Below, piece after piece: positions 2,646-50,438 of a stretch of DNA of 64,000 nt. Every line of letters begins with the position of its first letter. The first letter of the stretch is position 1. The stretch is from the NCBI GenBank assembly GCA_027622315.1, contig JAQBZW010000001.1:433-64432 (forward strand). Direction: 5' to 3'. The notes below the pieces were generated by a model. The model worked only from the letters and a program-made list of their open reading frames with translations, was not told where the DNA came from and searched no databases. The translations under genes and the position numbers were made by a program. Source of the DNA: Chloroflexota bacterium (GTDB lineage Bacteria > Chloroflexota > Dehalococcoidia > UBA2979).

Positions 2646-2650
2646 GCCGG

Positions 2651-3992: not shown

Positions 3993-4047
3993 GGAGTGCT
4001 CCTTCGTGATCTCGAGTGCGTGTCGTCGCGGATCGCGATCGCGGTGA

Positions 4048-4521: not shown

Positions 4522-4610
4522 CGTCGCCCCCGCCCGCGCGATCGCGCGTCCCGCACAGCCGTGCCGCCGTCGCGCGGGAAGTTCGCCCGCGGACACGGAT
4601 CAGGCACGGA

Positions 4611-6266
<1,656 letters not shown>

Positions 6267-6288
6267 AGTACGCCTCGGGTTCCCCGCC

Positions 6289-6300
6289 GCACTCGAGTGC
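6289..6300. promoter_or_regulatory. 12-bp perfect palindrome GCACTCGAGTGC in the 5' leader of the mutase operon
   Basis: Read directly from the sequence, 23 nt upstream of the mutase ATG. Function unknown. Confidence 0.25.
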
Positions 6301-6439
6301 GACGCACCGGTATTGCTTGGACTCGCACGGGTGGTCGAGGGCCGGAGTGTAGGTACGCGAGATGAGGTCGATCAACACGACGAGTCCGGGAGCGCCCGGT
6401 CACGCATAGCAGTTGGCGGGCGCCACGGGTGCGGAGTCA

Positions 6440-6516
6440 TGGTGGGCGATGGAGGGTTCGAACCTCCGACCTTCCGGGTGTAAACCGGACGCTCTAGCCA
6501 ACTGAGCTAATCGCCC
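6440..6516 (-). tRNA. tRNA-Val (anticodon TAC), CCA encoded
   Basis: The reverse complement folds as GGGCGAT-TA-GCTC-AGTTGGCTA-GAGC-G-TCCGG-TTTACAC-CCGGA-AGGTC-GGAGG-TTCGAAC-CCTCC-ATCGCCC-A-CCA: a full cloverleaf, 77 nt. Confidence 0.85.
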
Positions 6517-6526
6517 GCGACAGGGC

Positions 6527-6546
6527 GCGGGCTCCCGGGAGCCCGC
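6527..6546. repeat. 20-bp perfect palindrome GCGGGCTCCCGGGAGCCCGC, with a partial direct repeat of CCCGGGAGCCCGCGA about 30 nt away
   Basis: Read from the sequence. It lies between the 5' side of tRNA-Val and the stop of the small membrane-protein gene. It could act as a terminator or operator. Confidence 0.4.
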
Positions 6547-6581
6547 GACGGGACGCCGGATCCCGGGAGCCCGCGATGGGG

Positions 6582-6803: not shown

Positions 6804-6871
6804 GGCGTCAGCGTAACGCTTCGCCCGGCAACCGCGCGAAGCGCCAACCGACCCGGCGGAGAGATCGACTG

Positions 6872-21582: not shown

Positions 21583-22425
21583 TCACCACGGCGTGCCCTC
21601 GCTGGCCTGCTCGTCGAAGCGCGCGTTCTGTGCCTTCGACCACGCCACGCGATTCGCGTCCGCGTCGCTTGCGGCGCCACCGGAGCCACCGATCAGCCAG
21701 AAGTTCCCGGAGGCGCGCACGGCGGCGCTCTGCCCCATGATGTCCGCGGCCTGGTTGATCGACATCTTCGAGAGCTTCAGCGCATAGAGATCGTTCAGTG
21801 CCACCCGGCGCGCGAGCCACATCGTGGCGTCTTCAAGCTGCGCTCGCGGCACCACCCGGTTCACCATGCCCAGGCGATGCGCCTCCTCGGCGTCGACGAA
21901 GTCGCCCGTCCAGAGGTGCTCCTTCGCCTTCTTGATGCCGAGCTCCCAGAAGTGCGTCGGGTACTCGTGATGGGCACCACCCCAGCGCACCGATCGGTCC
22001 GCGAAGAGCGCGTCGTCCGCCGCCACCGCCAGATCGCAGGCGGCGACGAGCATCCACGAGCCCATGATGCAGTAGCCCTGCACCATCGCGATCGTCGGCT
22101 TGCCGATGTTTCGCCAGCGGTCGTGCAACCGCCAGTAGACGCCGCGATCCATCGACTCGAGCCGGCCGAGCGCCGACGTGTCGCGCGGAAAGTCCTCGAG
22201 CTCCGCCCGCGCCTCGTCCGTGCCGAGATCGTGCCCGCCGCCGAAGTGATCGCCGGCTCCGGCCACCACGATCACCTTGACGCTGTCGTCGCCCTCCGCG
22301 CGCGCGAATGCCTCGTCGAGCTCCGCGTATACGCGGCGGCTGATCACGTTGCGCTTCTCGGGACGGTTGACCGTCACCTTCACGATGTCATCGCGCTGTT
22401 CGTACAGGACGTGCTTCAGTTCCAC
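21583..22425 (-). CDS. enoyl-CoA hydratase/isomerase (crotonase) family protein
   Basis: VELKHVLYEQRDDIVKVTVNRPEKRNV...VIVVAGAGDHFGGGHDLG... A GTG start follows GGAGG (7 nt). Confidence 0.7.
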   Translation of the reverse strand: MELKHVLYEQRDDIVKVTVNRPEKRNVISRRVYAELDEAFARAEGDDSVKVIVVAGAGDHFGGGHDLGTDEARAELEDFPRDTSALGRLESMDRGVYWRLHDRWRNIGKPTIAMVQGYCIMGSWMLVAACDLAVAADDALFADRSVRWGGAHHEYPTHFWELGIKKAKEHLWTGDFVDAEEAHRLGMVNRVVPRAQLEDATMWLARRVALNDLYALKLSKMSINQAADIMGQSAAVRASGNFWLIGGSGGAASDADANRVAWSKAQNARFDEQASEGTPW

Positions 22426-22602
22426 GCTTCCGCCTCCACATCGCGCACGCCGTTCGCGGCGTCGCTGCCCGCACCCGGTTGCCGTCGAAGCCGCGGCTTC
22501 GTCACACGCTGCCCGGCACGCACGCATTACAGACGCCATCACGACCTGTCAACGCGAGGCGTGGCGGGAGGCGAGACGGGCGTGCGACGGGGGTCAGCCG
22601 AC

Positions 22603-26646: not shown

Positions 26647-28194
26647 TTACGGGCGCATCGTCCGCATACGCGGGCCGAGCTCGCGTGTGGCGAGCTGGAT
26701 CTGCGCGTGCCGGATGAACTGCACGGCGAGCGGTCGCGACTCGCGCGGATCGATCAGGTCGTACAGCCCGAACGACTCCGCGCGAAAGAACGGTGAGCGG
26801 TCGCGCGAGTGCAGATCCTCCAGTTCCTGGCGGCGGGCATCGGGATCGGGCGCGGCCTCGATCTCGCGGCGATAGGCAGCCCACACGCCGCCCTCGATCG
26901 GGATCGAGCCCCACTCGCCCGACGGCCACGCGTAGACCGGGCCGTTGCCGTTGTGGTGCAGCCCTGCCGCGACCCCGTACGCGCGGCGCACGATGAACTT
27001 CATCCACGGCACGGTCGCCTGGCTCACGGCGGACTGTGCGCGCACGCCCTGTCGGAGCGTGCCCGCCGTCTCCGCCTCGACACCGACCATGAACCCGGGC
27101 TCGTCCTCGAAGCTCAGGACCGGCAGATGGAACGAGTCGCAGAGGTCGATGAAGCGCGTGAGCTTCTCGGAGGAGTCGGCGGTCATGGCGCCGCCCTCGA
27201 AGTTTGGGTTGTTGCACGTGACACCCACCGGGTAGCCGTCGAGCCGCGCCAGCCCGGTCATGAGCGAGCGGCCGAAGTACGGCGCGAGCTCGAAATAGCT
27301 GTCCTGATCGAGCACGCACGCGATCAGCTTGCGCGGGTTGAAGGGCCGCCGGCGGTCGCGCGGCATCAGCGAGAGCAGATCCTCATCGCGGCGATCTGCC
27401 GGATCCGCGCAGTCGCGACGCTGCGGGAGCATCCAGGCGTTGCTCGGCATGTAGGACAGGAACGTCTTGACCTGGCGCAGGCAGTCGGCCTCGTCCTCGG
27501 CGAGGTTGTCGACGATGCCGCTGCGCGTGTGCACCTGCCAACCACCGAGATCTTCCTTCGACACCGACCAGCCGAGCGCGCGCTCAACCACCGGCGGTCC
27601 GCCCGCGAACAGGAACGCGGTGTTGCGCGCCATGACCGAGAAGTGCGACTGCGCAACGCGCGCGGCAACGATCCCTGCACACGCGCCCATCGCGGCGGTG
27701 GCCACCGGCACGGTGCCCAGCAGATCCGCGTGCGGCGACACGGGCTGGCCAGAGATCGCGTTGCCCGAGTGACGACTGCGGTTCGTGCGCACGCTGCCGC
27801 CGGCGCCCTCGTGCAGCCGCACCAGCGGCAGCCGCATGCGCCGCGCCAGGTGCTCCATGTAGTAGCCCTTCGCGCTGCCGCCGCCGTCCGACGCGCCGCC
27901 GCGGATCGTCGCATCCTCGCCACCGATCACGACGTCCTGCCCGTCGATGCGTGCGGTGCCGATCACCGCGTTCGAGGGCGTCAGCGAAACGAGGTTGCCG
28001 TCGTCATCACGCTCGGCGGAGGCGGTGAGCCGGCCGATCTCCTGGAACGAGCCGACGTCCACGAGCTCGTCGATGCGCTCGCGAATCGTGAGCAGGCCGC
28101 GCGCGTGCTGCCGCTCGACGGCGGCCGGACCGCCCATCTGCTCGGCAAGCCTCCGGCGACGCTCGATCTCTTCGACTTCTGGCTGCCAGGTCAT
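26647..28194 (-). CDS. acyl-CoA carboxylase carboxyltransferase subunit family protein (AccD/PccB/methylmalonyl-CoA decarboxylase-like)
   Basis: 515 aa in a two-domain carboxyltransferase arrangement: ...DGQDVVIGGEDATIRGG... and ...AMTADSSEKLTRFIDLCDSFHLPVLSFEDEPGFMVG... GGGAGG lies 5 nt before the ATG. Confidence 0.75.
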   Translation of the reverse strand: MTWQPEVEEIERRRRLAEQMGGPAAVERQHARGLLTIRERIDELVDVGSFQEIGRLTASAERDDDGNLVSLTPSNAVIGTARIDGQDVVIGGEDATIRGGASDGGGSAKGYYMEHLARRMRLPLVRLHEGAGGSVRTNRSRHSGNAISGQPVSPHADLLGTVPVATAAMGACAGIVAARVAQSHFSVMARNTAFLFAGGPPVVERALGWSVSKEDLGGWQVHTRSGIVDNLAEDEADCLRQVKTFLSYMPSNAWMLPQRRDCADPADRRDEDLLSLMPRDRRRPFNPRKLIACVLDQDSYFELAPYFGRSLMTGLARLDGYPVGVTCNNPNFEGGAMTADSSEKLTRFIDLCDSFHLPVLSFEDEPGFMVGVEAETAGTLRQGVRAQSAVSQATVPWMKFIVRRAYGVAAGLHHNGNGPVYAWPSGEWGSIPIEGGVWAAYRREIEAAPDPDARRQELEDLHSRDRSPFFRAESFGLYDLIDPRESRPLAVQFIRHAQIQLATRELGPRMRTMRP

Positions 28195-28215
28195 GTCAGT
28201 ACCTCCCGGGCGGCG

Positions 28216-29469
28216 CTACTCCATGGCACCCGCCGCCGCATAGTCCGCGATCTCGTCCGCGCTCAGTCCCAGCACCTCCGTCAGCACCTCGAACGTGTGC
28301 TCGCCGATCAGCGGCGCGCGTGATGTGACAGGCGGATGCGCCCGTGAGCGGATCGGGTTGCGATGGATCAAGAACGATCGCCCGGACGGATGATCCCCGG
28401 GCGCGGTCTCGTGGAACTGGTTGCCGCCGAGCGTCGGATCGCGATGCACGCTATCCGGGATGGTCTGATACGGACCGGCCGGCACGCCGGCTGCCTGCAG
28501 TTGTTCCGCCAGCTCATGCCGGTCGAATGCGCGCGTCCACGCCTCCAGCGCGTCGCGGATCTCCTCGCCGGCGGCGCGGCGGCCATCGAGCGTGGCGAAG
28601 CGCGTGTCGCGCAGTGCGTCGACGCCCGACAGCGCGACCAGCGTCTGCCACTGCCGGTCGTCGTAGACCGCGATCGCGCACCAAGAATCCTCGCCGGCGC
28701 AGCGGAAGAAGTCGTGCGGGCAAGCACTCGCGTCGTCGTTCCCGATTGGCGCCGGCGCGCTCCCCGTCGCCCCGTACTCGAGTAACGCCGGCCCCATGAT
28801 CGCGATGGTCGACTCGTACTGGCTGAGCTCGATGAACTGCCCCTCGCCGGTGCGATCGCGGTGTTCGAGAGCGGCGAGCACGGCGATCGCGGCATGGAAC
28901 GGATTCGACGAGAAGTCGGCGTACTGGTGTCCCCAGGGCAACGACGGCTCGCCGGGGTGGCCGGAGACCGACTTCAGCCCGGCCACGCCCGCGAACATGT
29001 CGCCGAAGCCTCGCCAGCGTGCGCGCGGCCCGCTGCTCTCCATGCTCGGCATGTTGACGACGATCACGCCGGGGTTCAGATCGCGCGCGCGCTCGTAGCC
29101 CGCGCCCCACTGCTCGAGCTGATCGCCAGCAAGGTTGCACAGCACGACGTCGGACGCGGCGACTAGCCGCTGGAGCAGCTCGCGGCCCTCCGCGGAGCCG
29201 AGATTCACCGTGCACGATCGCTTTCCCGAGTTCGCGTCCTGGAAATATCCACCGCTGTCGGGATCCGAATTCGCGTCGCCCGGGAGCACGCCGAACAGCG
29301 GCGTGCGGTTCGCTCGTCCGACCTCCATGCGCTTGCGTGACTCCACCTTGATCACGTCCGCGCCGAAGTCCGCCAGCAGCCGCGCCGCGAACGGGCCCGC
29401 GATGATCCACGAGAGGTCGAGCACGCGCACTCCCGCGAGCGGCCGGGGGGCGTGATCGCCCGCGCTCAT
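28216..29469 (-). CDS. CoA transferase family III (CaiB/BaiF/Frc-like)
   Basis: LAGVRVLDLSWIIAGPFAARLLADFGADVIKVE... is full length (417 aa). Its start overlaps the upstream gene's stop (ATGA). Confidence 0.85.
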   Translation of the reverse strand: MSAGDHAPRPLAGVRVLDLSWIIAGPFAARLLADFGADVIKVESRKRMEVGRANRTPLFGVLPGDANSDPDSGGYFQDANSGKRSCTVNLGSAEGRELLQRLVAASDVVLCNLAGDQLEQWGAGYERARDLNPGVIVVNMPSMESSGPRARWRGFGDMFAGVAGLKSVSGHPGEPSLPWGHQYADFSSNPFHAAIAVLAALEHRDRTGEGQFIELSQYESTIAIMGPALLEYGATGSAPAPIGNDDASACPHDFFRCAGEDSWCAIAVYDDRQWQTLVALSGVDALRDTRFATLDGRRAAGEEIRDALEAWTRAFDRHELAEQLQAAGVPAGPYQTIPDSVHRDPTLGGNQFHETAPGDHPSGRSFLIHRNPIRSRAHPPVTSRAPLIGEHTFEVLTEVLGLSADEIADYAAAGAME

Positions 29470-30332
29470 AGCACGCCCTCAGCGCGCAGCCCGGCGAGCG
29501 CCGCGCCGTCGAGACCAATGGCGCCGTACACCTCGGCGTTGTGCTCCCCGAGTCGCGGGGGGCGCCCGCCCACGCCCCCGGGGGTGACGCCGAAGCGCAT
29601 CGGCAGACCCGCATCGCGCGGCACGGTCGCGAGCTCCGGATGGTCGATGTCGACGAAGAACGCACGGGCTTCGAGGAAGGGGTCCCGCAGCAGGTCGGCC
29701 GCGTCGTGCACCGGCAGCGCCAGCAGCCCGCGCGACTGGACCGCATCGACCAACACGCCTCGCGTCTGCGTGCCAACCCACCGCGCGATCAGCCGGGTGG
29801 GACGTTCGTCCGCCATGAACTGATCGTGGGTGAGGTCCGCGCGCAGCGCGCGCAGCGCGCGCAGCTCCGCGACGACGGCCGGTGCATCCTCGCCGCTGAG
29901 TTCGCCGACGAGCGCGATGGCCTCCGGGTCGCGCCAGGGGTTGAACGCGACGTAGCCGTCGGCCGCCTCGTAGAGGCCGTTGGGCAGACCGTCGCCGCGT
30001 GGCGTGCGACCGCGCTCGAAACCGAACTGGTGGTAGAGCGACGCGTTCTGCATCTGGAACGTGACCAGCGTTGCGACGCGCTCGATCGCGATGTCGACGA
30101 CATCGCCACCACCCCCGATGCGCGCGGAGCGGCGGGCGATCAGCGCGCCGAGCGCGGCGGCGAGTCCCGCCAGCTCCGACGCCTGCTCCGGGCCAAAGCG
30201 CGCGGGGCACCCCTCGCGGTAGCCGTACAGGCCGAGCATGCCGCTCATCGCCTGGCAGACCAGGTCCCCACCCAGTCCCTCTCTCTGGCCACATATCTGT
30301 CCGGTCATGTCCGCCGCTCGATACGCACGCAA
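29466..30332 (-). CDS. CoA transferase family III homolog lacking the N-terminal about 150-aa Rossmann/CoA-binding region (truncated paralog)
   Basis: It begins near the catalytic-Asp region (GGDLVCQAMSGMLGLYG) and continues through the small domain and C-terminus. No N-terminal domain is encoded upstream in any frame; only 118 bp separate it from the divergent gene. Confidence 0.55.
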   Translation of the reverse strand: MRAYRAADMTGQICGQREGLGGDLVCQAMSGMLGLYGYREGCPARFGPEQASELAGLAAALGALIARRSARIGGGGDVVDIAIERVATLVTFQMQNASLYHQFGFERGRTPRGDGLPNGLYEAADGYVAFNPWRDPEAIALVGELSGEDAPAVVAELRALRALRADLTHDQFMADERPTRLIARWVGTQTRGVLVDAVQSRGLLALPVHDAADLLRDPFLEARAFFVDIDHPELATVPRDAGLPMRFGVTPGGVGGRPPRLGEHNAEVYGAIGLDGAALAGLRAEGVL

Positions 30333-30450
30333 TCCGGATGCGCCGAGGGCGCGCCCGCCGATCGGCGCGCATAATCAGCGCGCCGCGCGCGGGATCGCGC
30401 GACGACACGGCGATCGGATGCGGGCCGGAGGGGGTGCGGGGGGGCGACTC

Positions 30451-38901: not shown

Positions 38902-40875
<1,974 letters not shown>

Positions 40876-40901
40876 GTCGGAGCGCCTCCGAGAACGCGAA
40901 A

Positions 40902-40935
40902 GGCCCCGGCGGGACCCGCCGGGGCCTGTTCGTCT
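40902..40935 (+). terminator. intrinsic terminator after acs: GGCCCCGGCGGG-A-CCCGCCGGGGCC stem-loop followed by TGTTCGTCT
   Basis: Read from the sequence, 27 nt after the acs stop. Confidence 0.6.
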
Positions 40936-40937
40936 AC

Positions 40938-41070
40938 CTCTCCCCCGGGGCTTCCGCGCCGACCCCTCGCCCCAAAGGGGCGAGGGGTAGTTGTCTCCTG
41001 CGGCCGCGTCAAAGTGCACCCCTCCCCCGGAAGCGGGGGAGGGGTCGGCGCGGAAGCGCCGGAGGGAGAG
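40938..41070. repeat. composite nested palindromic (REP-like) element: 26-bp outer inverted repeats enclosing two perfect hairpins (CCCCTCGCCCC-AAA-GGGGCGAGGGG and CCCCTCCCCC-GGAAGC-GGGGGAGGGG)
   Basis: Read from the sequence, in the convergent intergenic region between acs and a crotonase gene. A related copy lies at 48408-48438. Confidence 0.6.
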
Positions 41071-41071
41071 G

Positions 41072-41863
41072 TCAGCGCCCTGTGAACTGCGGCCGGCGCT
41101 TCTCGGCGAAGGCCTTGCGGCCTTCGAGGAAGTCATCGCTCTCGGCGCAATCCACAGCCATGGCGCGCACGCGCTCCATGTCGCGCTCTTCCGGCTCGAG
41201 CATCGACTGCCGGATCGACTCGCGCACGAGGCGCACGGTCAGTGGCGCGTTCTCCGCGATCGTCGACGCAAGCTCGCGCACCGTCGGCTCCAGCTGGTCC
41301 ACCGGCACGACGCGGCTCACCAGCCCGAGCCGGAGCGCCTCCTCCGCGCTGAATTGGCGGCCGGTCAGCAGGATCTCGGCGGCGGCCGTCTTGCCCACGG
41401 CGTCGACGATCGCCTTCGTGCTCTCGAAGCCGTAGCCGAGGCCCAGCCGCGCCGCCGGGATCCCGAAGCGCCCGTCCTCCGCCGTGATGCGAATGTCCGC
41501 GCGCAGGGCGGTCAGCAGGCCCGCGCCGAGCGCGTAGCCGCGGATCATCGCAATCAGTGGCTTCTCGAGCAGCGCGAAGCCGTCACGAGGGCGGCCGTCG
41601 TCGCCGCCGTCACGTCGCGGCATCCCGCGCTCGCGGCCGAACTCGCCGATGTCCGCACCCGCAACGAATGCCTTGTCGCCGGCGCCGCGCATCACGACGA
41701 CGCGCACGTCGGGGTCGGCCTGAAACGTTTCGAGGATCGCCGGGATCACGCGCTGCATCTCGCCGGAGAGCGCATTGCGGCGTTCCGGCCGGTTGAACGT
41801 CATCCAGCCGATGCCGTCCTCGACGCGAGCGAGCATCTGTTCCGTTTCGAGCATGATTGTCAT
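41072..41863 (-). CDS. enoyl-CoA hydratase/isomerase family protein
   Basis: MTIMLETEQMLARVEDGIGWMTFNRPERRNAL...VVVMRGAGDKAFVAGADIGEF... GGAGGG lies 8 nt before the ATG. The upstream part of the track ORF is discarded. Confidence 0.8.
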   Translation of the reverse strand: MTIMLETEQMLARVEDGIGWMTFNRPERRNALSGEMQRVIPAILETFQADPDVRVVVMRGAGDKAFVAGADIGEFGRERGMPRRDGGDDGRPRDGFALLEKPLIAMIRGYALGAGLLTALRADIRITAEDGRFGIPAARLGLGYGFESTKAIVDAVGKTAAAEILLTGRQFSAEEALRLGLVSRVVPVDQLEPTVRELASTIAENAPLTVRLVRESIRQSMLEPEERDMERVRAMAVDCAESDDFLEGRKAFAEKRRPQFTGR

Positions 41864-41889
41864 CAGCGGGACCCTCCGTGTACGGACGT

Positions 41890-42750
41890 TCAGGAGCTGG
41901 AGCGGTTGCCCCGGCCCGGCACCGCGGCCGCGCCCTCGCCCTGGTAGAGCCCGGCACCGCCGACCTCGCGCCAGTGGGTGTGTGCGAGCGTGTGCATGAT
42001 GAAGACGGCCTGCATCGCCGTCCACTGGCCCTGCGCGTCCTGCGTCTGGTTGATCGCTTCCTTCGTGAGCTTGAGACCGAAGAGCGGCTTCTCGGCGATC
42101 CGCTTGGCCATGTCCTCGGTGAACGTGCGGAGCTCGTCGTTCGGGACGACGTGGTTCACCATGCCCAGCCGGAACGCATCCTGCGCGCTCACCCAGTCGC
42201 CCGTGTAGAGCATCTCGCGGGCCTTGCGGTGGCCAAGCTCCCACGGGTGCGCGAAGTACTCGACACCCGGGATGCCCCATGCCACCACGAGATCACGGAA
42301 GCGCGCGTCCTCGGCGGCGATGATGATGTCGCAGGCCCACATCAGCATCAGGCCGCCCGCGATCGCGGCCCCCTGCACCTCGGCGATGATTGGCTTCGGG
42401 ATGTTGCGCCAGCGGCGCGTCATCTGGAGGTAGATCTCCTCCTCGCGGCCCATCGGCCCCTCGGCGCCCTCGAGCTCGAAGTTCGACCACGTGCCGACGG
42501 TCTTGAAGTCTTCGATCTTCGCGCCCGTACCGCCGCGCATGTCATGGCCGGAGCTGAAGTGCGGGCCTTCGCCGGAGAGGATGATCACCTTCACGTTCGA
42601 GTCGGCGTTCGCGTGATCGAAGGCGTCGTTCACGTCGTAGAGGAGCTGGGCGTCCTGGGCGTTCCGCGCCTCGGGGCGGTTCAGCGCCACGCGGACGACC
42701 TCCGGCGTGACGTGGCTGTAGAGCACGGTCTTGAACTCTGGATCGGCCAT
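41890..42750 (-). CDS. enoyl-CoA hydratase/isomerase family protein (HFSSGHD subtype)
   Basis: MADPEFKTVLYSHVTPEVVRVALNRPEARNA...VIILSGEGPHFSSGHD... Paralog of the 21583-22425 gene (HFGGGHD). Confidence 0.75.
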   Translation of the reverse strand: MADPEFKTVLYSHVTPEVVRVALNRPEARNAQDAQLLYDVNDAFDHANADSNVKVIILSGEGPHFSSGHDMRGGTGAKIEDFKTVGTWSNFELEGAEGPMGREEEIYLQMTRRWRNIPKPIIAEVQGAAIAGGLMLMWACDIIIAAEDARFRDLVVAWGIPGVEYFAHPWELGHRKAREMLYTGDWVSAQDAFRLGMVNHVVPNDELRTFTEDMAKRIAEKPLFGLKLTKEAINQTQDAQGQWTAMQAVFIMHTLAHTHWREVGGAGLYQGEGAAAVPGRGNRSSS

Positions 42751-42858
42751 CGATCGTCCTTTCGCGACGTGGCAGGGCCACGAACCGGCAATGTCGGCCA
42801 CGCCTCTCACCGCGCCGCGCGACGGGTCGCGCGGGCGGGCCGGGCGGGGCCGCGTTGG

Positions 42859-43704
42859 ATGGTACCGTCGCGCGCGAACCCGCACCGCACAGCGCACGAG
42901 GAGCACGTCGCCGTGGCCGACTACACCACCCTCACCCTGACGCGCGACGAGGGCGTCGCGCGCATCACGCTCAATCGACCCGAAGCGCTGAATGCGCTCG
43001 ACGAAGCGATGGCGCGCGAACTCCTCGCGGCAGCGACCGCCTGCGACGACGACCGAGCGGTACGCGCGGTCGTGATCGCGGGCGCCGGCCGCGCGTTCTC
43101 GGTGGGCGGCGACCTGAAGAGCTTCGCCGCACAGGGCGAGGCGCTGCCGACGCATCTCAAGGACGTGACCACCTACGCACACGCCGCGGTCTCTCGACTC
43201 GCGCGCATGCGCGCACCCGTGCTCGCCTCCGTGCACGGCGCCGCCGCCGGCTTCGGCATGAGCCTCGTCGGTGCCTGCGACCTGGCGATCGCCGCCGACA
43301 ACGCGAAGTTCACGCTCGCGTACACCCGCATCGGCCTCACGCCCGACGGCTCCTCGAGCTACTCCCTGCCGCGCACGATCGGCATGAAGCGCGCGCTCGA
43401 GCTCGCGCTCACCAACCCCACGCTCGACGCGGCGCAGGCGCGCGACTGGGGCCTCGTGAACTGGGTCGTGCCTGCGGACGAACTCGAGGCCGAAGCGACG
43501 CGCATCGCGCGTGAACTCGCGGCCGGACCGACGAGTGCATTCGCCGGAGCAAAGGCGCTGATGCGTTCGGGCGGCTCGGAGAGCCTCGAGAGCCAGATGG
43601 AGCGCGAGACGCGCGCCATCTCCGAGATCGCCCGAGGCGCCGACGCCCGCGAGGGCATCGACGCGTTCCTCGCGAAGCGAGCGGCCAGCTTCGGCGGAGA
43701 GTGA
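42859..43704 (+). CDS. enoyl-CoA hydratase/isomerase family protein
   Basis: ...VADYTTLTLTRDEGVARITLNRPEALNAL...VVIAGAGRAFSVGGDLK... Start is ATG 42859 or GTG 42913 (the latter after GAGGAG). Confidence 0.75.
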   Translation: MVPSRANPHRTAHEEHVAVADYTTLTLTRDEGVARITLNRPEALNALDEAMARELLAAATACDDDRAVRAVVIAGAGRAFSVGGDLKSFAAQGEALPTHLKDVTTYAHAAVSRLARMRAPVLASVHGAAAGFGMSLVGACDLAIAADNAKFTLAYTRIGLTPDGSSSYSLPRTIGMKRALELALTNPTLDAAQARDWGLVNWVVPADELEAEATRIARELAAGPTSAFAGAKALMRSGGSESLESQMERETRAISEIARGADAREGIDAFLAKRAASFGGE

Positions 43705-43741
43705 GGGCCGCGCGCGGCCGGACCACCGCGGGAGTCAGCCT

Positions 43742-44188
43742 ATGGCCACGCTGCGACCGGCGAGAGCGGACGATTTCCAACTGCTCTACGAGATCAATCG
43801 CGAAGCGCTGCAGGGATTCGTGACAGCGACGTGGGGGGCCTGGGACGAGGCCTTCCAGCAACGCTGGTGCCGCGACCACTTCCTCCCGGGTCGAGCCCAG
43901 GCCATCCTCTCCGACGACGGCGCCGTGGTTGGCTACTTCGATGCGGAGCGCCAGCCGAGTTGCTGGTTCCTCCACAACATCGTGCTCGCGCCAGCGTGGC
44001 ATCGACATGGGATCGGTGCCTCGCTCATTCGCGATCTGCTAGCTCGCGCCAGCGAGGAAGGCGTCCCGGTCGAGCTCCGCGTGCTTCGAGTGAATCCGGC
44101 TCGCGGGCTCTACGAGCGCCTGGGGTTCGAGGTGACCGGGCAGACCGGAACGCACGACCTCATGCGCTGGGTGCCCCTCGCAGCGTGA
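43742..44188 (+). CDS. GNAT family N-acetyltransferase
   Basis: ...HNIVLAPAWHRHGIGASLIRDLLARA... is the acetyl-CoA-binding motif. GGGAG lies 7 nt before the ATG. Confidence 0.8.
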   Translation: MATLRPARADDFQLLYEINREALQGFVTATWGAWDEAFQQRWCRDHFLPGRAQAILSDDGAVVGYFDAERQPSCWFLHNIVLAPAWHRHGIGASLIRDLLARASEEGVPVELRVLRVNPARGLYERLGFEVTGQTGTHDLMRWVPLAA

Positions 44189-44271
44189 ATCCGAGCAGAG
44201 CTTCGGAGAACTGAGAGCCCTCGGCGGACAACCGCGGGTCGAGAGTGTTGCCCCGGTGGCAGGCGAGTTAG

Positions 44272-45939
44272 CTAGATCGCGACGTAGACCGGCTGCTCGC
44301 CGAACACCCGGCGCCACATGTTGCAGATCTCGCCGACGGTGCAATACGCGTGCGCGGCCTCGACGAGGTACGGCATCACGTTCTCGCCGTCTTTCGTCGC
44401 CCGCTCGAGCTCGCTCATCGCACGGGCGGCGCGGGCGGCGTCTCGGGTCTTCCGCGTGCGGCGCAGCCGCTCGAGGTGTCGCGCCTCCCCGTCGGGGTCC
44501 ATCTCGAGGATGGGGATGTCGAGCGCCTCGTCGAGCACGTAGTCGTTCACGCCCACGATCACGCGTTCGTGCTGCTCGATCTCACGCTGATAGACCTGCG
44601 CGGCGTCCGCGATCTCGGACATGAAGAAGCCCTGCTCAATCGCCGGCAGCACGCCGCCGAGATCCTCGATGCGGTCGAAGTACTGGAGGCAGATGCGCTC
44701 CATCTCGTCGGTCATCGACTCGACGAAGAACGAGCCGCCGAGCGGATCCACCGTGTTCACGACACCGGACTCGTGCTCGATCACCTGCTGCGTGCGCATC
44801 GCCAGGCGCACGGCCTTCTCACTCGGTAGCGCGAGCGCCTCGTCCCACGAGTTCGTGTGCAGCGACTGCGTGCCGCCGAGCACACCGGCGAGCGCCTGGA
44901 TCGTCGTGCGGATCAGGTTGACCTCGGGCTGCTGGCTCGTCAGCGAGACGCCGGCGGTCTGCGTGTGGAAGCGCATCAGCCACGAGCGCGGGTTCTTCGC
45001 GCCGAAACGCTCGCGCATCTGGCGCGCCCAGATGCGCCGCGCCGCGCGGAACTTGCCGATCTCCTCGAAGAAGTCGTTGTGGCAGTTGAAGAAGAACGAC
45101 AGGCGTGGCGCGAACTCGTCGATGTCGAGGCCGCGTTCCAGCCCCCACTTCACGTACTCAATGCCGTTGGCGAGGGTGAACGCGAGCTCCTGCGCCGCCG
45201 TCGAGCCGGCCTCCCGGATGTGGTAGCCGGAGATCGAGATGCTGTTCCATTCCGGCATCTCGCGCGACGCGTACTCAATCGTGTCCACCACGAGGCGCAT
45301 GCTCTCCTCGGGCGGATAGATGTACTCGTTCTGGGCGATGTACTCCTTGAGGATGTCGTTCTGAAGCGTGCCACGCAGCGTGCTGCGGTCGACACCCTGC
45401 TTCTCCGCCGCAGCGATGAACATCGCCCAGATCACCGCCGCCGGTGAGTTGATCGTCATCGACGTCGAGATCTTGTCGAGCGGGATCTGGTCGAACAGGA
45501 TCTCCATGTCGGCGAGCGAGTCGATGGCCACGCCGCAGCGGCCGAACTCGCCGAAGGCCTCCGGCTCGTCGTGGTCGTAGCCCATGAGCGTGGGCATGTC
45601 GAAGGCGACCGACAGTCCGTCGTCGCCGTGCTCGATCAGGTAGCGATAGCGTGCGTTCGTCTCCTCGGCGGAGCCGAAACCGGCGAACATGCGGATCGTC
45701 CATGGCTTCGCCCGGTAGCCGGTGCGATGGACGCCGCGGGTGAAGGGGTAGGCGCCGGGCAGGGCAAGGTCGCGCTCGTAGTCGAGCTTCGCGACGTTCG
45801 TCGCGTCGTACACGCGATCGATTGGCATGCTCGATGTCGTGATGAACGGACCAGGCTGTTCGCGGCCTTCCGCGGCCACCTCGGCCTCGTAGCGCTCGCG
45901 CGCCTCGCGGGCGGCTTTCGCCGTCTTCTCGTCGAACAT
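44272..45939 (-). CDS. second coenzyme-B12 acyl-CoA mutase large subunit, isobutyryl-CoA-mutase-like (Gln replaces the substrate-carboxylate Arg)
   Basis: 555 aa. [33 protein letters not shown]...[21 protein letters not shown]...[11 protein letters not shown]. The other copy has [10 protein letters not shown] at this position. GAAGGAG SD is present. Confidence 0.85.
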
Positions 45940-45974
45940 GAAGCACTCCTTCTCCGAGCAGCCCCATCGTATGC

Positions 45975-46065
45975 GGGTGTTGTAGGGGCTTGTAGGGGCA
46001 GGCTGACCAGCCTGCCGAGCACCGCCGATGTTCGCCGGGCAGGCTGGTCAGCCTGCCCTACGAAC
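45975..46065. repeat. about 26-bp inverted repeats (GTAGGGGCAGGCTGACCAGCCTGCC ... GGGCAGGCTGGTCAGCCTGCCCTAC), each also a self-hairpin, preceded by a TGTAGGGGC x2 direct repeat
   Basis: Read from the sequence. It spans the SDR stop codon and the leader of the mutase-2 gene. Confidence 0.5.
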
Positions 46066-46849
46066 GCAGTCGGGCCTTCGTCGCCGCGTCCGCGAGCCGC
46101 TCGACGGCCTGCTCGTCGTTGAACGCCTCGCCGGTGCACGTGTCCGGCGTCTGTAGCGCCAGCAACACGGCGGCTTCGACGTAGCTCGCCGCCGTGGGCA
46201 GGCCGGCGCGCACGTCCGGCGCGAGATCGCCGCCGTGGCCAAAGCGCATGCCCGGCGTCTCGATCGCCGCCACGGGCTTCAGTGCGTTCACCGCGATCCC
46301 GTGGGCGCGCACTTCGCGCGCGAGCTGGCGCGTGAAGTCCTCGACCGCGCGCTTCGTGATCCCGTACGACCCCGAGTCCTCCCGGTCGGCCGCCACCGAC
46401 GAGATGTTGATGATGCTCCCGCTGCGCTGCTCGACCATGGTCGGAAGCACGGCGCGGGTGCAGAAGAACGGGCCGTTCACGTTCACGCGGAACTGGAGCT
46501 CCCAGTGACGCGACTGGAGATCAGACAGCGCGCCGGGCACGAGCACGCCCGCGTTGTTCATGAGGATGTCGATCCGCCCGTATTTCGCGAGCACGGTCTC
46601 AACCATCTGCTCGACCGACGCGCGGTCGGCGACGTTGCAGACGACGGGGAAGCCCTCGCCGCCGACCTCGTCGACCTTGATCGCCGCCGAATAGATCGTG
46701 CCCTCGAGGATCGGGTTGCTGACCTGCTCGGTGCGCGCGGCGATCACTACGGTCGCTCCCTCGCGCCCGTATTCGATGGCGCAGTACTCGCCGAGTCCGC
46801 GGCTCGCGCCGGTGATGATCGCAACCTTGCCCGCCAGCCTGCCCGCCAT
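46058..46849 (-). CDS. SDR-family oxidoreductase
   Basis: MAGRLAGKVAIITGASRGLGEYCA... (TGxxxGxG) and ...NNAG... with a YxxxK-type region. AAGGAGGA lies before ATG 46849. The upstream 28 codons of the track ORF are discarded. Confidence 0.8.
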   Translation of the reverse strand: MAGRLAGKVAIITGASRGLGEYCAIEYGREGATVVIAARTEQVSNPILEGTIYSAAIKVDEVGGEGFPVVCNVADRASVEQMVETVLAKYGRIDILMNNAGVLVPGALSDLQSRHWELQFRVNVNGPFFCTRAVLPTMVEQRSGSIINISSVAADREDSGSYGITKRAVEDFTRQLAREVRAHGIAVNALKPVAAIETPGMRFGHGGDLAPDVRAGLPTAASYVEAAVLLALQTPDTCTGEAFNDEQAVERLADAATKARLRS

Positions 46850-46989
46850 GCCGTCCTCCTTCGTCCCCGCGGGCGACGATAGCGCCCGCTTCCGGCGAGC
46901 GGAGCGCGCGAAGCCGCCGCTCGCCAGAGACACGAAGGCGGCCGCCCTCCGGGGCGGCCGCCTTTACGATCGTCGACCCGGGGGCTGCG

Positions 46990-48171
46990 CTAGTTCAGGT
47001 TCTCGAAGATCGCCGAGATGCCCTGGCCCCCGCCGATGCAGAGCGAGACGAGCCCGTACTTGCCGCCTGTGCGGGCGAGCTCGTGCATGAGCTTGACGGT
47101 CAGGATCGCACCGGTCGCGCCGACGGGGTGGCCGAGCGCCACCGCGCCGCCGTTCGGGTTCGTGCGCTCGGGGTCGAGGTCCAGCTCACGCGTGCACGCC
47201 AGGGCGACCGACGCGAAGGCCTCGTTCAGCTCGATGCTGTCGAGCTCGTCGCGCTTGATCCCCGTGCGCTCGAACACCTTCTTCGTCGCGGGGATCGGAC
47301 CGCTGCCCATGATCGCCGGGTCGACGCCCGCTACCGCACTGCCGACAAACCGCAGCCGCGGCTTCAGGTTCAGCTCGGCCGCCCGTTTCGCCGTCATCAT
47401 GACGAGGGCGGCTGCGCCGTCATTGATGCCCGACGCGTTGCCGGCCGTGACCCTGCCGCCCTCCTGGAAGGCGGGCCGCAGGCTGCCCATGCGCTCGATG
47501 CTGGAGTCGGCTCGTGGGTGCTCATCGGTGTCGGCGATCTTCGTCTCGCGTCCCACCTTCACCTCGAGCGGGAGAATCTCCTCCTTGAAGCGTCCCTCGG
47601 TCGTCGCCGCGACCGCGCGGCGGTGGCTCTCGACCGAGAAGATGTCCATGTCCTCGCGCGAGATGTTGTACTTCTGAGCGAGGTTCTCCGCCGTGACGCC
47701 CATGTGGTAGTTGTTGAACGGATCCGAGAGCAGGATCGGGATGCCGTCCTCGAGCACGCCGTTGCCCATGCGCAGGCCGAAGCGTGCGCTGCGGTCGTAG
47801 TACGGCAGCATCGTCATGTTCTCGGTGCCGCCGGCGATCACGATCTCCGCCTCGCCCGTCTGCAGCCAGCGAGCGGCCGTGGTGATCGCCTCGAGCCCGG
47901 ACCCGCAGAGGCGGTTGACCGTGTAGGCGGGCGTCTCGATCGAGAGCCCGGCGTCGATCGCGGCATGGCGTGCGATGTAGGCGTCCTCGGCCACCTGGCC
48001 GACGCAGCCCATCACGACCTGCTCAACCTGCCCCGGCTCAATGCCCGCGCGCTTCACGGCCTCACGAATGACCGCGGCGCCGAGGTCCGAGGCCGGTGTC
48101 TCGATGAAAGAGCCGCCGAAGCGACCAATCGCCGTCCGCACCCCACTGACGATGACGATGTCTTCGCTCAT
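46990..48171 (-). CDS. acetyl-CoA C-acetyltransferase (thiolase II)
   Basis: MSEDIVIVSGVRTAIGRFGG...NRLCGSGLEAI...NGGAVALGHPVGATGA...CIGGGQG are thiolase signatures. Confidence 0.9.
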   Translation of the reverse strand: MSEDIVIVSGVRTAIGRFGGSFIETPASDLGAAVIREAVKRAGIEPGQVEQVVMGCVGQVAEDAYIARHAAIDAGLSIETPAYTVNRLCGSGLEAITTAARWLQTGEAEIVIAGGTENMTMLPYYDRSARFGLRMGNGVLEDGIPILLSDPFNNYHMGVTAENLAQKYNISREDMDIFSVESHRRAVAATTEGRFKEEILPLEVKVGRETKIADTDEHPRADSSIERMGSLRPAFQEGGRVTAGNASGINDGAAALVMMTAKRAAELNLKPRLRFVGSAVAGVDPAIMGSGPIPATKKVFERTGIKRDELDSIELNEAFASVALACTRELDLDPERTNPNGGAVALGHPVGATGAILTVKLMHELARTGGKYGLVSLCIGGGQGISAIFENLN

Positions 48172-48407
48172 GATCGGGTCGCTCCCTGCTTCTCGAATCC
48201 CACTGGTGCTCACGCCAGGGCGGCGCGCCCACCGTCTGTGCTCGTGCCGTGTCCCATGGGGCCGCGCGTGCGCGGTCGCGCACATCCTAGCGACGGCGCG
48301 CGAGCCGAGACAACGGACCGACCATGCGATGTACTTTCCCGCTCCGCGTACCTCCCCGCTCGGCGTCACCCCACTGCGCGGAGCTCTGCCCCGCTGCTTC
48401 CGCAGCG

Positions 48408-48438
48408 ACCCCTTTCCCCCTTCGGGGCGAGGGGTGAC
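48408..48438. repeat. imperfect hairpin with UUCG tetraloop sharing the GGGGCGAGGGG motif with the 40938-41070 element
   Basis: gacccctttccccc-ttcg-gggcgaggggtgac, in the divergent region between the thiolase and typA genes. Confidence 0.4.
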
Positions 48439-48611
48439 GGCGCTCACGCGCCGTGAGGAACGCTCCCCCGAAACCAAGGTGGGGAGTGACCAGAGGCGGC
48501 TAGCTCGCGCGGGTGCGACACTGAATGCTCAACACCACACCCGTCCTTGCCGACGCCCGATCACGCCCGCCGATGCGCGTGTGATCACGTGCCCGGCCCA
48601 TCGGAGACCCC

Positions 48612-50438
48612 ATGCCCATTCGAGACGACATCCGCAACGTCGCGATCATCGCGCACGTCGACCACGGCAAGACCACGCTGGTGGACGGGCTGCTGCGTCA
48701 GTCCGGCTCCTTCACAGCACACGAGGCACTCACCGACCGGGTCATGGACTCAGGCGACCTCGAACGCGAGAAGGGGATCACGATCCTCGCGAAGAACACC
48801 GCGATCCGGTACCGCGATGTGAAGATCAACATCATCGACACACCGGGCCACGCGGACTTCGGCGGCGAAGTGGAACGCGGGCTCACGATGGCAGATGGCG
48901 CCCTGCTACTCGTCGACGCGAGCGAGGGGCCTCTGCCGCAGACCCGCTTCGTGCTGCGCAAGGCGCTCGAGCGACGGATGTCGATCATCCTGATCATCAA
49001 CAAGGTCGATCGGCCGGACGCGCGCATCAAGGAAGTCGTGGACGAGGTTTACGAGCTGTTCCTCGACCTCGACGCCGACGCGCAGCAGATCGAGTTTCCG
49101 ATCGTGTACTGCAACGCGCGCGCGGGCGTCGCATCACTCGACGCGGACACGCCGGGCACGGACCTCGCTCCGCTGTTCGACCTCCTGCTCGCCCGCATTC
49201 CCGCGCCGGTCTACCGCGAGGGGCACCCGCTCCAGGCGCTCGTGACCAACCTCGACGCCTCGCCGTACCTGGGCCGGCTCGCGATCTGCCGCGTACTCGA
49301 GGGCGAGATTCAGCGCGGCCAGATGATCGCGCACTGCCGTGAGGACGGCACGATCGACAGGGTGCGCGTCGCCGAGCTGTTCGTGACCGAGGCGCTCGAT
49401 CGCGTGGACGCCGCCTCGGCCGGCCCCGGCGAGATCATCGCCGTCGCCGGCATGCAGGACGTGACGATCGGCGAAACGCTGTCCGACGCCGACGATCCGC
49501 GACCGCTGCCGGTGATCCGCGTCGATGAGCCGAGCCTCTCGATGACGATCGGCATCAACACATCGCCGCTGGTCGGCCGCGAGGGCGACAAGCTCACTTC
49601 CCGCCTGCTGAAGACTCGGCTCGACGCCGAGATCCTCGGCAACGTCTCGATTCGCGTTTCACCGGCGGACCGGCCGGACACCTGGACCGTGCAGGGGCGG
49701 GGCGAGCTCCAGCTCGCGGTGCTCGTGGAGACCATGCGCCGCGAGGGCTACGAACTCACCGTCGGCAAGCCCGAGGTCGTGACGCGGGAGATCGACGGCA
49801 AGCTGTGTGAGCCGATGGAGCAGCTCTTCGTCGACATCCCGGAGGAGTACCTGGGAGTGGTTACGCAGCTGCTCGCGCTGCGCAAGGGTCGCATGCAGCA
49901 GATGGTGAACCATGGCACGGGACGCGTTCGGATGGAGTTCATCGTCCCGGCGCGCGCACTGATCGGCTTCCACACGGAATTCCTCACGGAGACGCGCGGA
50001 TCCGGGATGCTCAACCACCTCTTCCACGGCTACGAGCCGTGGCACGGCGAGCTGCGCACGCGCCCGACCGGGAGCCTCGTCGCCGACCGCCGCGGCGCGA
50101 CCACGACGTACGCGCTGCTGAACCTCCAGGAGCGCGGCGTGCTGTTCATCCCGCCCGGCACCGACGTGTACGAGGGCATGATCATCGGCGAGAACGCCCG
50201 CACCGAGGACATGGACGTCAACCCGACGCGCGAGAAGAACCTCACGAACATGCGCAGCTCGAGCTCCGATCGCACGGAGCGGCTCTACCCGCACACCCCG
50301 CTCTCGCTCGAGCAGTCGCTCGAGTTCCTGCGAGAAGACGAGTGCCTGGAGGTCACGCCCGGCGCCGTGCGCCTGCGCAAGGTCGTGCTCGACCAGAACG
50401 ATCGGTCGCGCCGGTCCAAGGGGCGTCCCGGCGGCTAG
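48612..50438 (+). CDS. typA: translational GTPase TypA/BipA
   Basis: [22 protein letters not shown] is the G1 motif. The domains are EF-G-like. GGAGA lies 5 nt before the ATG. Confidence 0.9.

What the first reader, a model, noticed from the sequence alone, without database searches (positions are those of the whole stretch)
40938..41070. Nested palindromic REP-like element with a GGGGCGAGGGG hairpin family
After the acs terminator, 26-bp outer inverted repeats bracket two perfect GC-rich hairpins (11-bp stems). A related, partly degenerate hairpin with a UUCG loop and the same GGGGCGAGGGGT core recurs at 48408-48438, 7 kb away. This is a dispersed repetitive extragenic palindrome family, possibly a MITE-like or REP-associated element or a target for a REP-associated tyrosine transposase.
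Basis: seen in the sequence. Interest (0 to 1): 0.5.

Follow-up and report, generated by a model that had tools for sequence, protein, structure and literature searches.

The report
BoxC-like nested palindromic repeat doublet
The nested GC-rich palindrome after the acetyl-CoA synthetase gene is real, and it is a lineage-specific variant of a known but functionally unexplained class of bacterial intergenic repeats (BoxC / PIT / "intrastrand triplex motif"), so it adds a variant to that class rather than a new kind of element.

Summary
Window 40936-41072 is a 137-bp near-perfect palindrome. It has outer arms matching at 25 of 27 positions and two perfect 12-bp hairpins, with fold z about -10 on both strands. 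It lies between the convergent acs and enoyl-CoA hydratase genes of an uncultured Chloroflexota (Dehalococcoidia-class) MAG.

Each half is one unit made of three parts:
- a C-rich terminal block;
- a 16-nt GC hairpin (CGGCGC-GGAA-GCGCCG);
- a hairpin of the form CCCTCNCCC-loop-GGGNGAGGG.

The locus at 48380-48454 is a true homologue. A covariance model built without it scores it at 53 bits. It is a collapsed form: small hairpin, big hairpin, small hairpin.

The big hairpins match blocks 1 and 2 of the published E. coli BoxC/PIT/TMECO pattern exactly. The third block is present, but it lies behind the inserted small hairpin instead of a 3-nt loop. Chloroflexota relatives carry canonical three-block units. 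Azospirillum carries a similarly built dispersed family (504 places), and a Latescibacterota-like contig carries the same hairpin-bearing unit.

No transposase or RAYT is in the window, there is no target-site duplication, and the element is absent from the orthologous gap of a relative with 92% identical acs. Genome-wide copy number could not be measured.

Verdict: a new variant of a known repeat class, of modest interest.

The parts
40936..40945 (+). Left terminal C-rich block (ACCTCTCCCC). It is the counterpart of the BoxC 'third' block and pairs with 41062-41072 in the minimum-free-energy fold.
   Evidence: Sequence. Aligned by model R2 to the CCCTCACCCCC block of canonical units in relatives.
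40946..40961 (+). Left small GC hairpin, CGGGGC-TTCC-GCGCCG (5 of 6 pairs).
   Evidence: Alignments A1 and A2. Helix 1 is 95.8% paired, with 2 pairs changed on both sides across 4 units.
40962..40988 (+). Hairpin A, ACCCCTCGCCCC-AAA-GGGGCGAGGGGT (perfect 12 bp). It matches CCCTCNCCC-N5-GGGNGAGGG.
40989..41017 (.). 29-nt spacer. GCGGCCGC (41000-41007) lies at the centre of symmetry.
   Evidence: Sequence.
41018..41045 (+). Hairpin B, ACCCCTCCCCCG-GAAG-CGGGGGAGGGGT (perfect 12 bp). It matches CCCTCNCCC-N6-GGGNGAGGG.
41046..41061 (+). Right small GC hairpin, CGGCGC-GGAA-GCGCCG (6 of 6 pairs; the loop fits GNRA on this strand).
41062..41072 (+). Right terminal G-rich block, GAGGGAGAGG(T). It contains GGGAGAGG, which is 8 of 9 to the third block GGGNGAGGG. 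Base 41072 is also the first base of TCA, the TGA stop of the minus-strand enoyl-CoA hydratase gene.
   Evidence: pattern 'blk3far'. Gene ends.
48380..48391 (+). Second locus: degenerate terminal block (GGAGCTCTGCCC).
   Evidence: Leave-one-out model R2 alignment.
48392..48407 (+). Second locus: small hairpin CGCTGC-TTCC-GCAGCG. Two compensatory pair changes relative to the main element.
48408..48435 (+). Second locus: hairpin C, ACCCCTTTCCCC-CTTC-GGGGCGAGGGGT (imperfect).
48437..48454 (+). Second locus: right small hairpin ACGGCGC-TCAC-GCGCCGT. The stem CGGCGC/GCGCCG is identical to that of 41046-41061.
   Evidence: (minus-strand hit at 48404-48457).

Best explanation
The element is a non-coding, non-autonomous intergenic palindromic repeat of the BoxC / PIT / TMECO class (the G/C-rich 'intrastrand triplex motif' class of Holder et al. 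2015). Here it is an inverted doublet of two units in an uncultured Chloroflexota genome.

Each unit has the three blocks of that class: a pyrimidine block, its purine complement forming a hairpin, and a second mirror-like block. The 3-nt second loop is replaced by a 16-nt GC hairpin with a GGAA/TTCC loop.

Because the two units are inverted with the third blocks outward, either strand, once unpaired, can fold in two ways. One is a row of four local hairpins (small, big, big, small). The other is a closed three-way structure with a 26-bp outer stem.

Shown: the anatomy, the homology of the three units, the relation to canonical units in relatives, the intergenic position, and the absence from the orthologous site of a close relative.

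Inferred:
- It arrived or expanded in a variable gap as a selfish or neutral repeat, by a mechanism that is also unknown for BoxC.
- At this locus its main consequence is probably at the RNA level. It would be a very stable 3' structure shared by the convergent acs and enoyl-CoA hydratase transcripts. It would block read-through and 3' exonucleases.
- Because the structure starts at the last base of the hydratase stop codon, it may also interfere with translation termination of that gene.
- At the DNA level it may act as a hotspot for slippage and deletion. The second locus looks like a doublet collapsed onto a single big hairpin.
For: Anatomy and fold.

Unit homology:
- The alignment of A, B (minus strand), C and L005 has 83% mean column identity.
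- The small hairpin is kept through changes on both sides of two pairs.
- The leave-one-out model finds copy C at 53 bits.

Link to the known class:
- Both big hairpins match CCCTCNCCC-N3-6-GGGNGAGGG exactly. Each has GGGNGAGG 19-20 nt further out.
- An E. coli blastn hit falls on the potF|potG gap, which carries the strict TMECO pattern.
- Pattern, BoxC/PIT synonymy, intergenic location and inverted pairs come from PMC4666352.

Relatives:
- Model R2 aligns full length, with the small hairpin deleted, to units CCCTCACCCCC-NN-CCCCTCTCCC-loop-GGGAGAGGGG in L036, L037 and L011. The best E is about 8e-7.
- Five of those eight (in L036 and L037) fit a loosened three-block pattern; the two in L011 do not.

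Same architecture elsewhere:
- An Azospirillum element (c' block, hairpin, hairpin, small GC hairpin, c block) has 504 places in 45 replicons.
- L005, from a Latescibacterota-like contig, has one unit with the hairpin insert and one without.

Not locus-specific: the acs|ECH gap of the relative with 92% identical acs holds a different 108-bp tandem duplication. The gap of the relative with 80% identical acs holds two BoxC-like units.

Collapsed doublet.
Against: - The strict published TMECO pattern is not met (0 strict matches in the window). Loop 2 is 19-20 nt, well outside the 1-6 nt loops used to define intrastrand triplex motifs.
- Hairpin A has a pyrimidine inside its purine arm, which should weaken any triplex.
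- The sequence similarity to E. coli BoxC is short (about 41 nt, E = 0.1). It could be convergence on a structural theme rather than common descent.
- Multi-copy status in this genome is unproven. There are only two loci in 64 kb plus about 5 kb of extension.
- The unit signature was found in none of 185,579 species genomes, and only once, in L005, in JGI metagenomes.
- Earlier work cited by Holder et al. reports no terminator or promoter activity for the E. coli motif. No T-tract terminator is predicted here. The proposed RNA-level role is therefore inference only.
Confidence: 0.6

Rival explanations
1. It is a REPIN, a doublet of REP sequences mobilised in trans by a REP-associated tyrosine transposase (RAYT) encoded elsewhere in the genome.
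For: - The layout is an inverted doublet of short palindromic units with singlet-like relatives.
- A 'CGA' junction immediately 5' of every big hairpin is invariant. It could be a recognition or cleavage motif.
- It lies in extragenic positions next to gene ends.
Against: - No Y1_Tnp/RAYT or any transposase domain is present in the window.
- The best-matching known class (BoxC/TMECO) was reported as not associated with mobile elements.
- High copy number is not shown.
- The unit signature is absent from 185,579 species genomes.
Confidence: 0.12
2. It is a MITE, a deletion derivative of an insertion sequence, with 26-nt terminal inverted repeats and moved by a DDE transposase.
For: - Size is 137 bp with terminal inverted repeats matching at 25 of 27 positions.
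- It is absent from the orthologous gap of a close relative.
- Two other assemblies of this locus (a second sample, ERZ23495042, and the Logan assembly of SRR2027830) break at its left end.
Against: - There is no target-site duplication. The flanks are ...TCGTCT | element | CAGCGC....
- No second full-length copy was found in the window, in other loci, or as translated ORFs among 5.8 billion proteins.
- The second locus has single-unit-like collapsed architecture, not two terminal repeats around a core.
- The contig breaks are explained by the inverted repeat itself.
Confidence: 0.08
3. It is a locus-specific bidirectional terminator or structured 3'-UTR RNA for acs and the hydratase. The second locus would then be an unrelated GC hairpin.
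For: - It sits in a convergent gap, and the structure begins at the hydratase stop codon, which has no other terminator.
- The fold is very stable on both strands.
- Each inner hairpin is followed by a slightly T-rich stretch of the spacer.
Against: - It is not conserved in the same gap of relatives with 92% and 80% identical acs.
- No consensus terminator is detected.
- The second locus is a full-length homologue lying in a divergent promoter-side gap.
- There is no Rfam match.
Confidence: 0.12
4. It is a chance palindrome or an assembly artefact.
For: The genome is 69% GC with many intergenic hairpins. The 12-mer recurrence alone is not significant.
Against: - z is about -10 with 0 of 200 shuffles folding as well.
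- The sequence is reproduced in other assemblies.
- The independent model hit to copy C has E about 3e-12.
Confidence: 0.02

Closest known systems
E. coli BoxC, also called PIT element or TMECO intrastrand triplex motif (Holder et al. 2015, PMC4666352; earlier work cited there)
   Same: - The hairpin sequence theme is the same, CCCTCNCCC-loop-GGGNGAGGG. Hairpin A shares CCCTCGCCCC-TTT-GGGG.GAGGG with the commonest E. coli type.
- A third, mirror-like G-rich (or C-rich) block is present.
- It is strictly intergenic.
- It occurs as an inverted pair, as 5 of the K-12 loci do.
- The loci vary between related genomes.
   Different: - Loop 2 is a 16-nt GC hairpin plus junction, 19-20 nt in total, instead of 3 nt.
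- The third blocks point outward and close the whole element. From the Table 1 coordinates, the third blocks of E. coli pairs lie inside.
- Both big hairpins are perfect, whereas most E. coli copies carry one mismatch.
- The host is Chloroflexota; TMECO was reported from 262 proteobacterial genomes.
- Copy number here is unknown.
Azospirillum ~115-130-bp intergenic repeat (found here; I know of no published name)
   Same: Same order of parts: C-rich block, Y/R hairpin, Y/R hairpin, small GC hairpin, G-rich block. The third blocks face outward. It is dispersed and lies almost entirely in stretches with no annotated gene.
   Different: - The small hairpin is on one side only and has a different sequence (CCCGCGGC-AGC-GCCGCGGG).
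- The other side has the canonical TAA loop.
- Only about 76% identity over 68 nt to the window element.
REP / BIME / REPIN elements with RAYT transposases
   Same: Short extragenic palindromes that occur as singlets and inverted doublets, near gene ends, able to form long hairpins.
   Different: No RAYT was found. The sequence theme is unrelated to known REPs. High copy number is not shown.
Correia/NEMIS-type MITEs
   Same: 100-150 bp, terminal inverted repeats of about 26 nt, located at gene ends, and the transcript folds into a long hairpin.
   Different: No TA or other target-site duplication, no related IS, and an internal structure made of repeated Y/R hairpins.

Membership tests
BoxC / PIT / TMECO intrastrand triplex motif | Blocks 1 and 2: CCCTCNCCC, a loop of 3-6 nt, then GGGNGAGGG. 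| tested here: met
   Both hairpins match on both strands (40964-40986 and 41020-41043). They are the only two such sites in 64 kb.
BoxC / PIT / TMECO intrastrand triplex motif | A second loop of exactly 3 nt followed by the third block GGGNGAGGG. | tested here: not met
   There are 0 strict matches in the window. GGGAGAGG(T), 8 of 9, lies 19-20 nt away behind a 16-nt GC hairpin.
BoxC / PIT / TMECO intrastrand triplex motif | Always intergenic. | tested here: met
   The main element lies in the 196-bp acs|ECH gap. The second locus lies in the 440-bp thiolase|bipA gap.
BoxC / PIT / TMECO intrastrand triplex motif | Many dispersed copies per genome. | tested here: inconclusive
   Three units at two loci in 64 kb and none in about 5 kb of extension. 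The rest of the genome could not be reached. Relatives carry 2-4 canonical units per ~22 kb.
BoxC / PIT / TMECO intrastrand triplex motif | Relatedness to canonical three-block units. | tested here: met
   Model R2 aligns end to end, with the small hairpin deleted, to units in L036, L037 and L011, with E from 8e-7 to 2e-3. The five in L036 and L037 fit a loosened three-block pattern.
BoxC / PIT / TMECO intrastrand triplex motif | The single strand forms a purine-motif triple helix. | not testable with these tools
   This needs CD, NMR or UV melting. By eye the third block aligns antiparallel to the purine arm with 1-2 mismatches. Hairpin A has a C inside its purine arm.
REP/REPIN-RAYT | A RAYT (Y1 HUH transposase) gene in the genome, typically flanked by the repeats. 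| tested here: not met
   No such domain among the predicted window genes. The rest of the genome was not testable.
REP/REPIN-RAYT | Tens to hundreds of near-identical copies. | tested here: inconclusive
   As above. The signature is absent from GTDB species genomes, and only L005 turned up in JGI metagenomes.
MITE | Terminal inverted repeats. | tested here: met
   25 of 27 positions.
MITE | Target-site duplication flanking the element. | tested here: not met
   The flanks TCGTCT and CAGCGC share no direct repeat. The right flank is the native ECH stop codon, which is conserved in L010.
MITE | Several full-length copies and a parent IS with the same ends. | tested here: not met
   No second full-length copy by blastn in the window, by models in other loci, or by six-frame peptide search. 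No transposase is in the window.
Intrinsic terminator | A GC-rich stem followed by a T/U tract. | tested here: not met
   0 terminator-like sites in 40500-41500 or in 48100-48700.
Any Rfam RNA family | A score at or above the family gathering threshold. | tested here: not met
   Only two tRNAs in the window reach threshold. The best hit over the element is 26.8 bits against a threshold of 74.

The most novel reading that the evidence does not exclude
The module 'small GC hairpin with invariant GC-TTCC-GC, then CGA, then Y/R hairpin' may be a specific recognition site for an as yet unknown trans-acting enzyme that copies or moves BoxC-type repeats. It is shared by a 69%-GC Chloroflexota genome and a 49%-GC Latescibacterota-like contig, with compensatory changes in the small stem. 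If so, this variant would be a handle on how BoxC/PIT elements spread, which has no published answer that I found.
Probability: 0.1. Interest if true: 0.65.

Novelty: new variant of a known kind. Interest (0 to 1): 0.3.

Why it matters
BoxC/PIT/TMECO repeats have been known in E. coli since the 1990s. They are abundant in many bacteria, yet they have no established function or mechanism of spread.

This case matters in three ways:
- It shows the same sequence theme in uncultured Chloroflexota.
- It shows a variant in which a structured hairpin replaces the short loop that the triplex model relies on.
- That variant recurs in an unrelated phylum, and a similar layout recurs in Azospirillum. This suggests that local hairpins, rather than a triple helix, may be what is maintained.

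In practice such elements break short-read assemblies; three assemblies of this organism differ at palindromes in this region. Annotation pipelines should mask them rather than call ORFs or sRNAs over them.

Tried and rejected
- **Rfam.** Gathering threshold on the whole window and permissive E-values on 40600-41400 gave only noise (miRNA models, sbcD RNA at 24.5 of 40 bits).
- **GTDB genome scan.** Pattern TTCCGCNNCGACCCCTN{12,18}GAGGGGT over 185,579 species genomes gave one hit (L002), which has no hairpin and looks like chance. The source genome is therefore not in that collection, and I could not count copies genome-wide.
- **JGI metagenome scan.** The same pattern gave 7 hits, of which 6 are coding-sequence coincidences. 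Only L005 is a real relative.
- **IMG/VR scan.** GCTTCCGCNNCGACCCCT gave 17 hits, none with the big hairpin.
- **Peptide search.** The four open reading frames of the element, concatenated, were searched against 5.8 billion proteins to catch copies hidden in spurious ORFs. Nothing scored E <= 10.
- **Walking out of the window.** End genes gave only about 0.4 kb on the left and about 4 kb on the right. One look-up failed on start-codon choice.
- **Target-site duplication.** None found.
- **Consensus promoter and terminator scans.** Empty.
- **Weak model hits.** Hits at 6812-6867 and 46288-46342. By eye the first shows no Y/R hairpin. The second lies inside the SDR gene and was not inspected. 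I treat both as false positives.
- **Registration error.** My first structure string for helix 2 was mis-registered by two columns. Only the helix 1 (small hairpin) counts from that call are used.

Full report
**What is there**

Window 40936-41072 is a 137-bp near-perfect palindrome. Read on the + strand it has seven parts:
- a C-rich terminal block, ACCTCTCCCC (40936-40945);
- a small GC hairpin, CGGGGC-TTCC-GCGCCG (40946-40961);
- hairpin A, ACCCCTCGCCCC-AAA-GGGGCGAGGGGT (40962-40988);
- a 29-nt spacer with GCGGCCGC at the centre of symmetry;
- hairpin B, ACCCCTCCCCCG-GAAG-CGGGGGAGGGGT (41018-41045);
- a second small hairpin, CGGCGC-GGAA-GCGCCG (41046-41061);
- a G-rich terminal block, GAGGGAGAGG(T) (41062-41072).

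The outer arms match at 25 of 27 positions. Repeat-finder runs them a 31-nt, 90% inverted repeat, the longest inverted repeat within 150 nt in the 64-kb window. Folding gives -151.6 kcal/mol with z = -10.7 on the + strand, z = -9.6 on the - strand and z = -9.8 with DNA parameters. No shuffle did as well.

**Context**

The window is 69% GC. The element fills most of a 196-bp gap between two convergent genes. One is acetyl-CoA synthetase, which ends at 40875. The other is an enoyl-CoA hydratase on the minus strand (41072-41863), whose TGA stop overlaps the last base of the element. A separate perfect 13-bp hairpin at 40901-40927 follows acs.

The best acs relatives are named as MAGs of Dehalococcoidia, Tepidiformaceae and Chloroflexota. 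The same DNA occurs in an ENA metagenome scaffold, differing only by a 16-bp indel elsewhere. A Logan contig from a separate read set carries about 128 nt of the element before it ends. The element is therefore real.

Two assemblies end at or inside its left arm. The inverted repeat itself explains that without invoking many copies.

**The second locus**

The similarity runs from 48380 to 48439 and covers the terminal block, the small hairpin and the big hairpin. Its small hairpin (CGCTGC-TTCC-GCAGCG) differs from the main element at two pairs, and both changes are compensatory (helix 1 is 95.8% paired).

A covariance model built from units A, B (minus strand) and an outside sequence, without this copy, finds it full length at 53.2 bits, rough E about 3e-12.

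On its right, the same big hairpin is followed by another small hairpin (48437-48454). Its stem, CGGCGC/GCGCCG, is identical to that of the main element's right arm. The second locus therefore looks like a doublet collapsed onto one big hairpin. It lies in the 440-bp divergent gap between a thiolase gene and bipA.

In this copy the two arms can no longer pair with each other, yet each small hairpin still pairs locally. This suggests that the local hairpins, not the long outer stem, are what is maintained. No other unit exists in the window or in the roughly 5 kb of extra sequence I could reach.

**What it belongs to**

Rfam has nothing here. A sensitive blastn against E. coli genomes hit an unannotated gap between potF and potG. 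That gap reads GGGGCTTCCCCTCACCCTAACCCTCTCCCCAAAGGGGCGAGGGGA.

A literature search on such strings led to Holder et al. 2015 (PMC4666352). That paper reports the following:
- The motif is BoxC, also called PIT or TMECO, a G/C-rich 'intrastrand triplex motif'.
- Its pattern is CCCTCNCCC N3-6 GGGNGAGGG N3 GGGNGAGGG.
- E. coli K-12 has 23 copies, always intergenic, five of them as inverted pairs.
- There are 3610 copies in 262 proteobacterial genomes.
- It shows no association with mobile elements.
- Loci carrying it are unusually variable between strains.
- The isolated single strand forms a triplex in vitro, but this was not seen in duplex DNA or in vivo.
- Earlier work cited there found no promoter or terminator activity.

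Both hairpins of the window element fit blocks 1 and 2 of that pattern exactly, and they are the only such sites in 64 kb. A third block, GGGAGAGG, lies at each outer end, 19-20 nt away behind the small hairpin instead of 3 nt away. The strict pattern is therefore not met.

**Relatives**

The unit model aligns end to end, skipping exactly the small hairpin, to units of the form CCCTCACCCCC-NN-CCCCTCTCCC-loop-GGGAGAGGGG in loci from Chloroflexota relatives. The acs identity is 77-80%. There are 2 units in L036, 4 in L037 and 2 in L011, and the best E is about 8e-7. Five of the eight, those in L036 and L037, fit a loosened three-block pattern with loop 2 of ACG, CCG or TTG. The lineage therefore carries canonical BoxC-like repeats, at about 2-4 per 22 kb in these samples.

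The element itself is not conserved at its site:
- In the relative with 92% identical acs, the acs|ECH gap is 339 bp and holds a different 108-bp tandem duplication. The ECH stop codon and the acs hairpin are retained.
- In the relative with 80% identical acs, the gap holds two BoxC-like units.

This argues against a locus-specific regulatory structure. It fits the reported variability of such loci.

**The hairpin-bearing variant elsewhere**

One JGI contig (L005, 49% GC) carries the same unit, CGCCGC-TTCC-GCGGCG followed by ACCCCTCTCTCGC-TTT-GCGAAAGAGGGGT. It is paired with an inverted canonical unit that lacks the small hairpin. Its purA gene is closest (82%) to Latescibacterota. The search pattern fixed part of this match. 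It did not fix the 5' half of the small stem, the complementarity of that stem or of the big hairpin, or the terminal block.

Azospirillum replicons carry an element with the same order of parts and a small GC hairpin of different sequence on one side. It has 504 places in 45 replicons, almost all in stretches with no annotated gene. So the architecture behaves as a dispersed repeat in at least one other lineage.

- No transposase of any kind is in the window. Pfam scans of the predicted genes found metabolic, transport, signalling and RecQ domains only.
- There is no target-site duplication.
- No second full-length copy was found in the window, in IMG/VR, or among translated ORFs.
- No consensus terminator or promoter was found.

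**Conclusion**

The element is best read as an inverted doublet of BoxC/PIT/TMECO-type units, with a structured hairpin inserted in loop 2. Its likely local effect is a very stable shared 3' structure for two convergent transcripts, beginning at the hydratase stop codon. That effect is inferred, not shown. How such repeats spread is unknown here, as it is for BoxC.

Noticed in passing
window 46937-46952: A 16-bp stretch (GGCGGCCGCCCTCCGG) is present in the window but missing from the otherwise identical ENA scaffold. It removes one arm of the perfect hairpin AAGGCGGCCGCCC-TCCG-GGGCGGCCGCCTT that follows the thiolase gene. This is either a slippage polymorphism or an assembly collapse at a palindrome.
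   Followed up: partly
window 45996-46058: Two near-identical hairpins, GGCAGGCTG-ACC-AGCCTGCC and GGCAGGCTG-GTC-AGCCTGCC, lie 21 nt apart between the methylmalonyl-CoA mutase and SDR genes. Together they form a 21-nt perfect inverted repeat. This is another nested palindrome, of a different sequence family.
   Followed up: no
window 6514-6575: A pair of overlapping palindromes (CGCGGGCTCCCGGGAGCCCGCG twice) lies immediately beside tRNA-Val (6440-6516, minus strand).
   Followed up: no
window 980-1018: A perfect 18-bp hairpin, GCGATGGATCTCGACGCC-GGC-GGCGTCGAGATCCATCGC. Its relation to the neighbouring genes was not examined.
   Followed up: no
L010 12071-12283: The relative with 92% identical acs has a 108-bp unit duplicated in tandem (2.0 copies, 90% match) in the acs|ECH gap. 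Each copy carries a CCCCTC...GGGAGGGGG hairpin.
   Followed up: partly
L031 1140-1270 and 45 Azospirillum replicons: An apparently unnamed dispersed repeat of about 115-130 bp built from BoxC-like hairpins plus a small GC hairpin. It has 504 places, up to 39 per replicon, almost all in stretches with no annotated gene.
   Followed up: partly
L036 9566-9611 and 18889-18933; L037 9220-9273, 9719-9777, 11963-12021 and 20629-20686; L011 11972-12029 and 12117-12166: All eight BoxC-like units in the three Chloroflexota relatives lie in the same orientation as acs. Several start right after a TAA, TAG or TGA triplet; in L037 the acs stop codon itself abuts the unit. This could be an orientation or target preference, but some loci may be orthologous, so the count is not independent.
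   Followed up: no
window 1674-6371, 21583-22548 and 38905-48171: The neighbourhood is dense in acyl-CoA metabolism genes. It holds two methylmalonyl-CoA mutase-family genes, MeaB, four enoyl-CoA hydratase paralogues, a thiolase, an SDR and acs, and between them CoA-transferases and a carboxyl transferase (26647-30374).
   Followed up: no
L041 end (window ~40940) and L043 end (window ~40946): Two other short-read assemblies of this locus (one from a second sample, one a Logan assembly of SRR2027830) terminate at or inside the left arm of the element. This is a practical sign that such palindromes fragment metagenome assemblies.
   Followed up: yes
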